Source: a phage
Strand: one strand, 5' to 3'
DNA: 64,000 nt
Assembly: GCA_025830695.1 (NCBI GenBank)
Contig: GCA_025830695.1_4111.1
Position 1 is the first letter of the stretch. Every line of letters starts with the position of its first letter. Under the pieces are notes generated by a model that ran no database searches, was not told where the DNA came from, and saw only the letters and a list, made by a program, of their open reading frames with translations. A program made the position numbers and the translations under genes. Positions 45,528 through 49,027 of the stretch are shown one piece after another.

Positions 45528-45863
<336 letters not shown>

Positions 45864-46745: not shown

Positions 46746-46846
<101 letters not shown>

Positions 46847-46848
46847 CA

Positions 46849-47009
<161 letters not shown>

Positions 47010-47013
<4 letters not shown>

Positions 47014-47170
47014 CACATGAAGAATGGATGAATGACATTAATTTTAGATATTCGGGTATCGGTAAATGGCTAAAGTATCATTGGGAATTCATTTCAGAGC
47101 CACATCTGTATGATAAACTTATCAACGATCCAGCATATGAAATGTACTTAATTGAACTACTGGTACGATT

Positions 47171-47174
<4 letters not shown>
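47010..47174 (+). CDS. MTHEEWM mini-protein family, copy 5 (54 aa)
   Basis: MTHEEWMNDINFRYSGIGKWLKYHWEFISEPHLYDKLINDPAYEMYLIELLVRL. The first ~55 nt are almost identical to copy 4. ATGA overlap. Confidence 0.6.
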
Positions 47175-47336
<162 letters not shown>

Positions 47337-47344
47337 AAAAAAAG

Positions 47345-47754
<410 letters not shown>

Positions 47755-47758
<4 letters not shown>

Positions 47759-47784
47759 CTAAATAATTCAGTACTGAGGATATT
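47755..47784 (+). promoter_or_regulatory. Second copy of the promoter cassette (weak -10)
   Basis: TTGACT (47755-47760) + AAATAATTCAGTACTGA. The best -10 is GATATT (47779-47784). Confidence 0.4.
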
Positions 47785-47815
47785 AATATGTTTAAAGATG
47801 AACGTCCAGATTTGT

Positions 47816-47853
<38 letters not shown>

Positions 47854-47859
47854 GAATTC

Positions 47860-48201
47860 CACAATCAGACGTATATGGTGTAAGTTACGTCGATGCAATC
47901 CAGAACAAGATCTCTGGTACTCTAGGAAGTGGTGAATGTTAACCTAGACGGGTTTGATAATTGGACGATAGGCAATTATTACTTGACTAGCAGGTTTAAA
48001 CTAGAGGTGACTATCCTTCACCAAACTGGAAAACCGGATGGACTTTTATTTAAAAGGGTAAGGCGTGGAAATATGTTTACAGAAGTTGCTTTTAGTAGCC
48101 TGTACGCCCCACGTCAAGGTAGCCGAAAGGCAAGTTAAGACGGGTGGTTATAAAGCTGAATTAACAGCGGCGTTTAAAAGCGTCACCATCCATTTTTTTT
48201 T
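47860..48201 (+). ncRNA. Candidate structured RNA or long structured leader (~340 nt), class unknown
   Basis: Lies downstream of a strong promoter and is locally more G+C-rich. No ORF with an RBS. Helices ggcgtgg/ccacgtc (48061-48067 with 48107-48113) and gcc-GAAA-ggc. Terminal stem gggtggt/accatcc (48142-48148 with 48185-48191) followed by T9. Confidence 0.35.
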
Positions 48202-48217
48202 AATTAAAGTTGGTGAT

Positions 48218-49027
<810 letters not shown>

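What the first reader, a model, noticed from the sequence alone, without database searches (positions are those of the whole stretch)
47860..48217. ~340-nt structured, ORF-poor segment between a strong promoter and a family gene: ncRNA or regulatory leader
The third promoter cassette (-10 at 47848-47853) is followed by about 340 nt that are visibly more G+C-rich than their surroundings. The segment contains helices such as ggcgtgg/ccacgtc (48061-48067 with 48107-48113) and a GNRA-capped gcc-GAAA-ggc. It ends in a stem (48142-48148 with 48185-48191) followed by nine T residues at 48193-48201. This lies only about 15 nt before the RBS and ATG (48218) of an EE-x-FFQ-x-S paralog. The two ORFs the track places here (47929..48138, and the N-terminal extension from 48065) lack RBSs and cross the helices. 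The segment is therefore either a stand-alone stable RNA or a terminator-controlled leader (attenuator or riboswitch-like) for the downstream gene.
Basis: partly seen in the sequence, partly recalled or inferred. Interest (0 to 1): 0.55.

Follow-up and report, generated by a model that had tools for sequence, protein, structure and literature searches.

The report
Two structured RNAs in phage tRNA-region
The 340-base stretch encodes two separate folded non-coding RNAs; one of them, 190 bases with three pseudoknots, belongs to an uncatalogued family that unrelated large phages carry among their tRNA genes, and its function is unknown.

Summary
A near-consensus promoter (47825-47853) is followed by a G+C-enriched, ORF-poor segment that ends in a stem plus nine T. 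The window is a Rak2-like jumbo coliphage (Asteriusvirus, about 98% PBECO4), and the segment lies in its tRNA region.

It is two autonomous modules, not one 340-nt unit.
- Module A (47857-48043) is a 190-nt RNA with seven helices and three pseudoknots. Covariation is strong: 93% of cells paired against 25-41% in slid controls, with 27 compensatory pairs.
- At 72-93% identity, A occurs in Bragavirus (T4-like), Novosibvirus (T5-like), Aeromonas T4-like phages, KP13-16 and RaK2. There it usually starts right after a tRNA's CCA and often ends a few bases before the next tRNA.
- Module B (48058-48201) is a long hairpin, a GAAA hairpin and a conserved three-way junction plus U9.

Natural variants carry A+B, A only, B only or neither. 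The ORFs are not conserved. There is no Rfam match even at E=10, and no homologue in E. coli or other bacterial genomes.

These are stand-alone stable RNAs of the kind known from T4 (RNAC/RNAD) and T5, but a new family. The riboswitch or attenuator reading is not supported. Function remains inferred.

The parts
47825..47853 (+). Sigma-70-type promoter: TTGACT, 17-nt spacer with TG, TATAAT. The expected start is about 47859-47861, at the first helix strand of module A.
   Evidence: 11 of 12 matches. The same cassette sits in front of module A in 121Q, EJP2 and L020. It is fused directly to module B in JNE01 and to the downstream gene in G17.
47857..48043 (+). Module A: a ~190-nt structured non-coding RNA with seven helices and three pseudoknots. 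It belongs to a family found in phage tRNA clusters.
   Evidence: Homologues. Covariance model R1 finds 19 distinct members at 138-221 bits and only one copy in the window. Covariation.
47859..47862 (+). PK1 5' strand (CCAC). It pairs with 47929-47932 (GUGG), which lies in the loop of P4 directly after the P4 5' strand.
   Evidence: The outer pair is C-G in 12 sequences, G-C in 5 and U-A in 2. This helix was not part of the model used to make the alignment.
47865..47893 (+). P2 hairpin (47865-47873 with 47886-47893). Its loop carries the conserved YGRYGUA motif.
   Evidence: 6 of 8 pairs have changes on both sides, and 87% of cells are paired despite imperfect alignment of the divergent lineages.
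47900..47917 (+). P3 hairpin (47900-47904 with 47913-47917). Its length varies between lineages.
   Evidence: The hairpin is replaced by different self-complementary sequences in SdyM006, Proteus phage 1, KP13-16 and the Aeromonas phages.
47921..47948 (+). P4 (47921-47928 with 47939-47948). Its loop holds the PK1 3' strand at 47929-47932.
   Evidence: 100% of cells paired, and 5 of 6 counted pairs have changes on both sides.
47956..47980 (+). P5 hairpin (47956-47963 with 47973-47980), with the conserved loop GGACGAUA.
   Evidence: 93% paired, and 5 of 8 pairs have changes on both sides.
47981..48004 (+). P6 hairpin (47981-47985 with 47991-47995) and PK2. PK2 pairs the P6 loop CUAG (47987-47990) with CUAG at 48001-48004.
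   Evidence: The PK2 strands read CUAG/CUAG, CUGG/CCAG, CAAG/CUUG and CAGG/CUUG in different lineages; 100% paired.
48002..48028 (+). Alternative helix: 48002-48004 with 48026-48028. It extends P7 and excludes PK2. Both pairings covary, which suggests two conformers.
   Evidence: All cells are paired. The three strands change together: U/A/U becomes A/U/A in AS-yj and CC2.
48006..48022 (+). P7 hairpin (48006-48010 with 48018-48022).
   Evidence: 100% paired. The fourth pair is G-C, A-U or U-A.
48013..48043 (+). PK3: the P7 loop (48013-48016) pairs with the 3' tail (48040-48043). This marks the 3' end of module A. The window's copy has an A-C mismatch at the outermost pair.
   Evidence: One pair is U-A in 13 sequences and C-G in 6. 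Another is G-C in 10, A-U in 5 and G-U in 1.
48044..48057 (+). AU-rich linker (UUUUAUUUAAAAGG) between modules A and B. It is a candidate endonuclease cleavage site (inferred).
   Evidence: Sequence. The module boundary follows from EJP2 (A only) and JNE01 (B only).
48062..48115 (+). Module B, hairpin B1. Outer helix 48062-48068 with 48109-48115; middle helix 48078-48082 with 48100-48104; apical helix 48085-48090 with 48094-48099.
   Evidence: Fold. Covariation is modest: 97% paired and 3 compensatory pairs among 6 sequences. B1 is shared with Kuravirus phages and with a metagenomic relative, where it follows tRNA-Arg.
48122..48131 (+). Module B, GCC-GAAA-GGC hairpin.
   Evidence: The identical hairpin stands in the EJP2 tRNA-Ser/tRNA-Arg spacer and in L021.
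48142..48191 (+). Module B, three-way junction B2. Closing stem 48142-48148 with 48185-48191; arm a 48155-48158 with 48165-48168; arm b 48169-48174 with 48179-48184.
   Evidence: Folds. There are 11 distinct copies, including three in RaK2. 97% of cells are paired and 6 pairs have changes on both sides.
48193..48201 (+). Run of nine U directly after the closing stem. This is the probable intrinsic termination point of the A-B transcript.
   Evidence: The run is U7-U9 in Asteriusvirus copies but AAAUUUUAAUU in RaK2-type copies.
48218..48595 (+). Downstream 125-aa gene of unknown function (phrog_38341). It is not part of the RNAs. No promoter-like site was found between the U-run and its ATG, so read-through is its likely source of transcription.
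   Evidence: In G17 the same promoter sits directly in front of this gene.

Best explanation
The segment is a small non-coding RNA operon, not a leader.

Transcript. A strong early-type promoter (47825-47853) makes a primary transcript of about 342 nt. This transcript ends, at least partly, at the three-way junction plus U9 (48142-48201). Read-through feeds the downstream 125-aa gene.

Module A (47857-48043). It folds into a compact RNA: hairpins P2, P3 and P5, then P6 and P7, tied together by three pseudoknots. PK1 ties down the 5' end and PK3 ties down the 3' end. That is the architecture expected of a nuclease-resistant, stable RNA.

Module B (48058-48201). It is a long irregular hairpin, a GNRA hairpin and a three-way junction that doubles as the terminator.

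Maturation. In other phages the same modules lie inside tRNA operons. Module A usually starts at the base after an encoded CCA and often ends 5-15 nt before the next tRNA. There it would be released by the tRNA-maturation nucleases (RNase E and 3' trimming on the 5' side, RNase P on the 3' side). This is how I recall T4 RNAC being matured.

What is shown and what is inferred:
- Shown here: the non-coding nature, the strand, the helices and pseudoknots, the modularity, the distribution, dispensability, and absence from bacterial genomes and Rfam.
- Inferred: the transcript ends, processing in the AU-rich linker, and action in trans.

Function. My best guess (about 35%) is that module A binds and titrates a conserved host protein of tRNA/RNA metabolism or a tRNA-directed defence nuclease. 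On this view it is an accessory host-takeover or counter-defence RNA spread between phages along with tRNA genes. The two mutually exclusive pairings, PK2 and the P7 extension, both kept by covariation, suggest that it switches conformation when it folds or binds.
For: Conservation above the flanks. Module A+B is 97-99% identical among Asteriusvirus genomes whose surrounding 1 kb is only 87-93% identical. Examples: slurp01 98.9% against 89.0%, UB 97.5% against 87.0%.

Spread across unrelated phages. Module A is 92-93% identical to copies in the T4-like phages PM2 and Mm5, and 84-86% to those in SdyM006 and the T5-like Proteus phage 1. These genomes are otherwise unrelated. It is recognisable in KP13-16 and about 20 Aeromonas phages.

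tRNA context. The RNA begins directly after a tRNA's CCA in five lineages. It ends 5-15 nt before the next tRNA in Bragavirus, Mm5, Novosibvirus and EJP2.

Structure.
- 53 pairs, 93.4% of cells paired against 25-41% with partners slid by 1-3 columns.
- 27 pairs changed on both sides; 0 of 500 shuffles reach the observed score.
- The three pseudoknots were not in the model that made the alignment, yet are 97-100% paired with compensatory changes.
- Abundant G-U pairs on the + strand show that the structure belongs to the RNA of that strand.

Not coding. The ORF is broken in 12 of 19 homologues.

Module B. The three-way junction and hairpin covary.

Modularity and dispensability. EJP2 has A only, JNE01 has B only with the promoter fused to B, and G17 has neither.

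Not a known family.
- Nothing in Rfam at E up to 10 in five lineages.
- ARAGORN calls no tRNA or tmRNA there.
- No E. coli genome match.
- Nothing real in 185,579 species genomes.

Precedent. T4 RNAC/RNAD and eight T5 'stable RNAs with unknown functions' are annotated in the tRNA regions of those phages (PMC3014915; PMC9697503).
Against: - There are no expression data. The transcript ends, the stability, processing between A and B, and action in trans are all inferred.
- The -10 box lies only 5 nt before PK1. A primary transcript starting at the usual distance would lose one or two PK1 pairs in this phage.
- The window's copy has an A-C mismatch in PK3.
- By position the segment is the 5' leader of the downstream gene, and the U9 terminator must modulate that gene.
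- The sequences fall into about six lineages, so the number of independent compensatory events is smaller than the cell counts suggest.
- No partner protein was found. No protein family is shared next to module A across lineages.
- The decoy or counter-defence role is a guess from context only.
Confidence: 0.75

Rival explanations
1. The segment is a cis-acting leader (attenuator or riboswitch-like) that controls the downstream 125-aa gene through the terminator at 48142-48201.
For: - It lies between the promoter and the gene.
- The U9 terminator ends 16 nt before the ATG, with no promoter-like site found in between.
- G17 shows that this promoter serves this gene.
- Module A has two mutually exclusive pairings that both covary.
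Against: - Module A occurs in six other lineages between tRNA genes with no such gene downstream.
- Module B and its junction also follow tRNAs.
- EJP2 keeps A but has a tRNA after it.
- The alternative pairing lies inside module A, 115 nt from the terminator stem, and does not compete with it.
- In RaK2-type copies the U-run is interrupted.
- There is no Rfam riboswitch or leader match.
Confidence: 0.1
2. The segment is one single ~340-nt RNA (a large ornate RNA such as GOLLD or ROOL, or a tmRNA or RNase P-like RNA) whose two halves work together.
For: - A and B are adjacent in 35 phage records, and also in RaK2-type phages.
- The total length is close to that of tmRNA or RNase P RNA.
- The MFE fold pairs the 5' and 3' parts.
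Against: - A and B occur separately in EJP2 and JNE01. A occurs alone in all non-Rak2 lineages.
- RaK2 has a 54-nt insertion between them.
- PK3 closes module A at 48043.
- No Rfam family matches, and ARAGORN finds no tmRNA.
Confidence: 0.05
3. The conservation reflects a DNA-level element, such as a homing-endonuclease target, a recombination hotspot or an origin, rather than an RNA.
For: - tRNA regions of T4 and T5 carry homing endonuclease genes, and SdyM006 has a segD-like gene next to the element.
- The modules behave as cassettes.
- In T5 the slot between tRNA-Leu and tRNA-Ser holds the HNH endonuclease gene hegC. Proteus phage 1 has module A between the same kinds of tRNA.
Against: - Compensatory changes keep Watson-Crick and G-U pairs on the + strand only. 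Several pairs are G-U in most sequences, which would be C-A on the other strand.
- The elements are always on the tRNA strand.
- Homing may explain how they spread, but not why the helices are kept.
Confidence: 0.04
4. The segment encodes small proteins: 47929-48138, 69 aa, or an N-terminal extension of the downstream gene from 48065.
For: Both ORFs exist mechanically. Some GenBank records annotate 'hypothetical protein' over the region.
Against: - The frame of 47929-48138 carries stops or frameshifts in 12 of 19 homologues.
- Substitutions are not concentrated at third codon positions: 26, 13 and 25 at positions 1, 2 and 3.
- The GTG 'start' is the PK1 strand.
- The ORF spans modules that occur apart.
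- The 48065 extension runs through the terminator stem and the U9 run.
Confidence: 0.02

Closest known systems
Bacteriophage T4 RNAC and RNAD (species 1 and 2 stable RNAs of the tRNA region)
   Same: - Non-tRNA stable RNAs encoded on the tRNA strand inside a phage tRNA cluster, abutting tRNA genes.
- Biological role unknown (PMC3014915, PMC9697503).
- Module A sits in exactly this kind of slot in the T4-like Bragavirus phages.
   Different: - No sequence or structure similarity. Model R1 and blastn find nothing in the T4 region.
- T4 RNAC is 139 nt and RNAD is 119 nt, against 190 nt for module A.
- RNAC ends in a tRNA-like T-arm, whereas module A ends in a pseudoknot.
- In the window the RNA has its own promoter and terminator.
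Bacteriophage T5 stable RNAs (RNAI, RNAIII, RNAIV, RNA1, RNA2, RNA2H, RNA3, RNAX), annotated 'stable RNA with unknown functions' in NC_005859
   Same: - They have the same genomic habitat and are interleaved with tRNAs, small ORFs, strong promoters and homing endonuclease genes.
- The T5-like Proteus phage 1 carries module A between tRNA-Leu and tRNA-Ser.
   Different: No homology was detected. The best R1 score in the T5 tRNA region with filters off is 6.6 bits at E 0.75, which is noise. blastn gives only chance words.
Type III toxin-antitoxin RNA antitoxins (ToxI) and phage 'pseudo-ToxI' mimics
   Same: These are pseudoknotted, protein-binding RNAs that phages can carry to neutralise a host abortive-infection nuclease. 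This rests on my own knowledge. It is the kind of mechanism I consider most likely for module A.
   Different: ToxI-type antitoxins are tandem arrays of short (~36 nt) repeats processed by the toxin. There is no tandem repeat here, and no toxin partner is known.
Rho-independent terminators
   Same: In the window the B2 closing stem (7 bp, including one G-U pair) is followed after one base by nine U.
   Different: - The stem encloses a conserved 36-nt two-armed insert, forming a three-way junction, rather than a short loop. The consensus scan does not call it.
- Junction nucleotides (UUAUAAA and CUGAAUU.ACAG) are conserved beyond what termination would need.
- RaK2-type copies lack an uninterrupted U-run.

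Membership tests
Stable non-tRNA RNAs of phage tRNA operons (T4 RNAC/RNAD, T5 RNAI etc.), a kind defined by context | Encoded inside or beside a phage tRNA gene cluster, on the tRNA strand | tested here: met
   Window tRNAs lie at 45550, 46652, 48621, 48865, 48948 and 50958, all on the + strand. Homologues are flanked by tRNAs.
Stable non-tRNA RNAs of phage tRNA operons (T4 RNAC/RNAD, T5 RNAI etc.), a kind defined by context | Non-coding and not a canonical tRNA | tested here: met
   The ORF is broken in 12 of 19 homologues. There is no ARAGORN or Rfam tRNA call on the element.
Stable non-tRNA RNAs of phage tRNA operons (T4 RNAC/RNAD, T5 RNAI etc.), a kind defined by context | Accumulates as a discrete stable RNA, released by tRNA-processing nucleases | not testable with these tools
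   This needs Northern blots, RNA-seq or end mapping. Only the abutment to the tRNA CCA and both ends locked in pseudoknots speak for it.
Stable non-tRNA RNAs of phage tRNA operons (T4 RNAC/RNAD, T5 RNAI etc.), a kind defined by context | Sequence or structure homology to T4 rnaC/rnaD or to the T5 stable RNAs | tested here: not met
   R1 finds nothing in the T4 region. Its best hit in the T5 region with filters off is 6.6 bits at E 0.75. blastn finds nothing.
Riboswitch or transcription-attenuation leader | Consistently placed upstream of the same gene or gene class | tested here: not met
   Depending on the phage, module A is followed by tRNA-Asp, tRNA-Ser, tRNA-Glu, tRNA-Thr or module B.
Riboswitch or transcription-attenuation leader | Alternative pairing that competes with the terminator stem | tested here: not met
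   The only covarying alternative pairing (48002-48004 with 47987-47990 or with 48026-48028) lies inside module A, not at the terminator.
Riboswitch or transcription-attenuation leader | Match to a curated riboswitch or leader family | tested here: not met
   Only chance-level hits with E above 4. None overlap the element in four other lineages.
Large ornate or housekeeping RNAs (GOLLD, ROOL, tmRNA, RNase P RNA, 6S, group I intron, YrlA) | Covariance-model match | tested here: not met
   Rfam 15 at gathering threshold and at E up to 10. ARAGORN finds no tmRNA.
Intrinsic terminator | Stable stem directly followed by a U-run | tested here: met
   Stem 48142-48148 with 48185-48191, then A plus U9. 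The stem-loop folds at -19.2 kcal/mol, z -3.3.
Intrinsic terminator | Compact hairpin with a short loop, and a U-run kept in homologues | tested here: not met
   The stem closes a 36-nt branched insert and is not called by the scan. RaK2, L021 and L022 copies are followed by AAAUUUUAAUU, and the EJP2 copy by a tRNA.
Type III antitoxin RNA (ToxI-like) | Tandem array of short repeats | tested here: not met
   No tandem repeat in 47700-48300.

The most novel reading that the evidence does not exclude
Module A is a trans-acting RNA counter-defence or host-takeover factor. On this reading it is a compact triple-pseudoknot RNA that toggles between two covariation-supported conformers. It binds and disables a host nuclease or other protein that acts on tRNAs. 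It travels between unrelated virulent phages as a cassette in their tRNA operons. It would be the first functional assignment for the 50-year-old class of 'stable RNAs' of phage tRNA regions.
Probability: 0.2. Interest if true: 0.85.

Novelty: new variant of a known kind. Interest (0 to 1): 0.6.

Why it matters
Stable non-tRNA RNAs in the tRNA regions of T4 and T5 are long known, and their roles are still listed as unknown (PMC3014915, PMC9697503).

This family gives that question better handles than the T4 and T5 RNAs do:
- A well-defined fold with three pseudoknots and a possible switch.
- Presence in at least six unrelated phage lineages that infect Enterobacterales and Aeromonas.
- A natural deletion series within one genus (A+B, A only, B only, neither).

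Such material allows direct tests: competition of near-isogenic phages on strain panels, pull-down of the partner, and structure determination.

It also shows that current annotation calls 'hypothetical proteins' over a structured RNA in many jumbo-phage records.

Tried and rejected
- Rfam scans of the window at gathering threshold and of the region at E up to 10, and of five other lineages, gave nothing but tRNAs.
- ARAGORN found no tRNA or tmRNA in the segment.
- blastn against all complete E. coli genomes found no match, so this is not a copy of a host RNA.
- Pattern scans of IMG/VR found only the known isolates.
- The metagenome scan added five true members. Its other hits (L018, L019, L023, L024) and both genome-scan hits (L027, L028) were chance matches.
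- I looked for a protein family shared next to module A across lineages. The only hits were spurious ORFs over the RNA and the tRNAs.
- Homology to T4 RNAC/RNAD and to the T5 stable RNAs was rejected.
- P8 (48026-48029 with 48034-48037) is weak. It is unpaired or gapped in the Aeromonas and KP13-16 copies and has no compensatory change.
- A CsrA-sponge idea, judged by eye, was dropped because the GGA motifs are not conserved in the Aeromonas copies.
- An apparent Shine-Dalgarno-like GAGGU in P7 has no start codon after it.
- Literature searches found no description of this RNA. The catalogue paper PMC10690425 holds no searchable supplement. One preprint could not be opened.
- The PA5oct ncRNAs (PMC7318152) are reported to match nothing in GenBank except the isolate MIJ3.
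Full report
**Where the window comes from**

The 1-kb stretch around the finding is 98% identical to Escherichia phage PBECO4 and 95-98% identical to 121Q and other ~350-kb phages. Close relatives with the same locus (EJP2, JNE01, G17) are classified as Asteriusvirus, a genus of Rak2-like jumbo phages. The finding lies in the phage's tRNA region. ARAGORN finds six tRNA genes on the + strand between 45550 and 51031. These are interleaved with short ORFs of unknown function and near-consensus sigma-70 promoters.

**Checking the observation**

- The promoter is real as a consensus match: TTGACT, 17 nt with TG, TATAAT at 47825-47853, 11 of 12.
- G+C rises to 0.37-0.44 over 47800-48250, against 0.28-0.30 on both sides.
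The GAAA hairpin is at 48122-48131.
- The terminal stem (48142-48148 with 48185-48191), the nine T (48193-48201) and the ATG at 48218 are exact.
- Folding energy alone is unimpressive: z = -2.1 for the whole segment.

**Two modules, not one**

blastn of the segment against 50,697 phage records splits it in two.
- Bases 1-188 of the query are module A. They match T4-like phages of Proteus, Morganella and Shigella (Bragavirus) at 86-93%, T5-like Proteus phages (Novosibvirus) at 84.5%, Klebsiella phage KP13-16 at 72%, and Aeromonas T4-like phages over a 64-nt core.
- Bases 198-362 are module B. They match only Rak2-like phages, plus a 54-nt piece in ~77-kb Kuravirus podophages.
- Within Asteriusvirus, EJP2 has A followed after 15 nt by tRNA-Ser. 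JNE01 has the promoter fused directly to B.
- G17 and its relatives keep the promoter and the first 37 nt, then run straight into the RBS of the downstream gene.
- RaK2 has both modules, with 54 extra bases between them.
- The segment is far better conserved than its surroundings. For slurp01 the figures are 98.9% against 89.0% for the 1-kb query; for UB they are 97.5% against 87.0%.

**Genomic habitat of module A**

- In PM2 and SdyM006 it starts at the base after the CCA of tRNA-Gly and ends 8-9 nt before tRNA-Asp.
- In Proteus phage 1 it lies between tRNA-Leu and tRNA-Ser.
- In Mm5 it ends 5 nt before tRNA-Glu.
- In KP13-16 and a metagenomic relative it follows tRNA-Leu.
- In all the Aeromonas phages it follows tRNA-Pro.
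- Only in Asteriusvirus does it have its own promoter.
- About 65 phage records carry it.
- Exact-pattern scans found it in no new IMG/VR contig beyond the known isolates. They found five metagenome contigs and none of 185,579 species genomes. Complete E. coli genomes have no match.
- It therefore looks like a gene of virulent phages of Enterobacterales and Aeromonas. It was probably moved horizontally, since otherwise unrelated genomes share it at up to 93% identity.

**Structure of module A**

I derived the helices by hand from the alignments. I then built covariance model R1 from the nested helices only. R1 recovers 19 distinct sequences at 138-221 bits and a single copy in the window.

On the resulting alignment, the full structure with three pseudoknots has 53 pairs:
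- 93.4% of cells are paired, against 25-41% when the partners are slid by 1-3 columns.
- 27 pairs have changes on both sides.
- 0 of 500 shuffles reach the observed covariation score.

The pseudoknots were not in the model, so the alignment was not fitted to them:
- PK1 (47859-47862 with 47929-47932) has an outer pair that is C-G, G-C or U-A.
- PK2 (47987-47990 with 48001-48004) reads CUAG/CUAG, CUGG/CCAG, CAAG/CUUG or CAGG/CUUG.
- PK3 (48013-48016 with 48040-48043) switches U-A to C-G, and G-C to A-U or G-U.

PK1 stacks on P4 and captures the 5' end. PK3 captures the 3' end and fixes the module boundary at 48043.

A second pairing of 48002-48004, with 48026-48028, extends P7 and excludes PK2. 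It is also paired in every sequence, and the three strands change together in AS-yj and CC2. Two conformers are therefore likely.

Many pairs are G-U on the + strand, so the structure belongs to the + strand RNA. The ORF 47929-48138, whose GTG is the PK1 strand, is interrupted in 12 of 19 homologues.

One caveat applies. The sequences form about six lineages, so independent compensatory events are fewer than the cell counts suggest.

**Structure of module B**

Folding gives three elements in the window, JNE01 and RaK2 alike.
- B1 (48062-48115) is a three-tier hairpin. It is 97% paired, with three compensatory pairs among six sequences. These include a Kuravirus copy and a metagenomic copy that follows tRNA-Arg.
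- The GAAA hairpin recurs unchanged in the EJP2 tRNA-Ser/tRNA-Arg spacer.
- B2 (48142-48191) is a three-way junction with conserved junction and arm-a sequence. Eleven distinct copies were found: three in RaK2, two in L022, and one each in EJP2, L020, L021, JNE01, an IMG/VR contig (L037) and the window. They are 97% paired, with six pairs changed on both sides.
- In Asteriusvirus, B2 is followed by U7-U9 and should terminate transcription. In RaK2-type copies the U-run is broken, so B2 may have a function beyond termination.

**What it is not**

- No Rfam 15 family matches the segment, even at E = 10, in the window or in four other lineages. This covers riboswitches, leaders, GOLLD, ROOL, tmRNA, RNase P RNA, 6S, group I introns and YrlA.
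- There is no tandem repeat.
- R1 finds nothing in the T4 tRNA region, which holds rnaC and rnaD.
- R1 finds only noise in the T5 tRNA region, which holds eight annotated 'stable RNAs with unknown functions'. blastn agrees.
- No protein family is shared next to module A across lineages.

**Most likely working**

The promoter makes an A-B transcript that stops, at least partly, at B2 plus U9. No promoter-like site was found between the U-run and its ATG, so read-through is the downstream gene's likely source of transcription. In G17 the same promoter serves that gene directly.

A and B are autonomous RNAs. In other phages they would be cut out of tRNA precursors by the tRNA-maturation nucleases, and both ends of A are protected by pseudoknots. 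Several features point to a trans-acting accessory RNA that binds a conserved host factor:
- its dispensability;
- its patchy distribution;
- its horizontal spread;
- its restriction to virulent phages of related hosts;
- its association with tRNA genes.

I put about 35% on a host protein of tRNA/RNA metabolism or a tRNA-directed defence nuclease. This step is inference.

**Comparison with the known**

The closest known things are the T4 RNAC/RNAD and T5 stable RNAs. They share the habitat, and their function is equally unknown (PMC3014915, PMC9697503). There is no detectable homology. I therefore file module A as a new family of a known kind, not as a member of any described family.

**Verdict**

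Module A is an uncatalogued, strongly supported, pseudoknot-rich RNA family. It is worth experimental follow-up, and the natural deletion series is a convenient starting point.

Noticed in passing
window 46746-46824 (+): A tRNA-like gene directly after tRNA-Ser(UGA). It has a UCU (Arg) anticodon loop, almost no D-arm and a ~20-nt variable region. It scores 32.6 bits on the Rfam tRNA model (gathering score 29). ARAGORN and the whole-window gathering scan both missed it. JNE01 has the same element (33.3 bits).
   Followed up: partly
L006 1150-1785 (Escherichia phage vB-EcoP-XT18, Kuravirus): A ~630-nt unannotated, G+C-rich, apparently highly structured non-coding stretch next to an endonuclease gene. 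It contains a copy of the module B1 hairpin (83% over 54 nt) and a GGACGAUA motif like the P5 loop of module A. No Rfam match at E up to 0.1.
   Followed up: partly
L007 2334-2450 (RaK2), also L022 257-372: Another conserved non-coding element of ~117 nt between tRNA-Gly and a copy of the three-way junction, just upstream of module A. It is absent from the window.
   Followed up: no
L004 1581-1670, L010 685-763, L029 704-775, L030 690-776 (Aeromonas phages): A conserved ~90-nt spacer (81-92% identity) between module A and tRNA-Thr. It may be yet another small RNA of the tRNA operon.
   Followed up: no
L065 4023-4709 (phage T5) compared with L003 2341-2787 (Proteus phage 1): In T5 the slot between tRNA-Leu and tRNA-Ser holds the HNH homing endonuclease gene hegC. 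The T5-like Proteus phage 1 has module A between the same kinds of tRNA. SdyM006 has a segD-like endonuclease gene just upstream of the tRNA-Gly that precedes module A. This fits cassette exchange driven by homing endonucleases.
   Followed up: no
window 46849-47335 (+): Three tandem paralogous 54-aa ORFs (MTHEEWM...), assigned to phrog_10970 of unknown function, with overlapping stop and start codons. They lie between the odd tRNA-like gene and the 117-aa gene.
   Followed up: no
L009 (Morganella phage vB_Mm5, PP397179.1): The record annotates its tRNA genes on the strand opposite to the one on which Rfam finds them. The deposited tRNA strands appear to be wrong.
   Followed up: partly
window 45550-45622 (+): ARAGORN calls tRNA-Gly(UCC) here, but it is missing from the Rfam gathering-threshold list for the whole window (five tRNAs against six).
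   Followed up: no
window 47755-47784, 47825-47853, 48586-48614: The promoter cassette (ttgactaaatagttcagtactgatataat) recurs with small changes in front of successive units of the tRNA region. A degenerate copy lies only 70 nt upstream of the one that serves module A.
   Followed up: no
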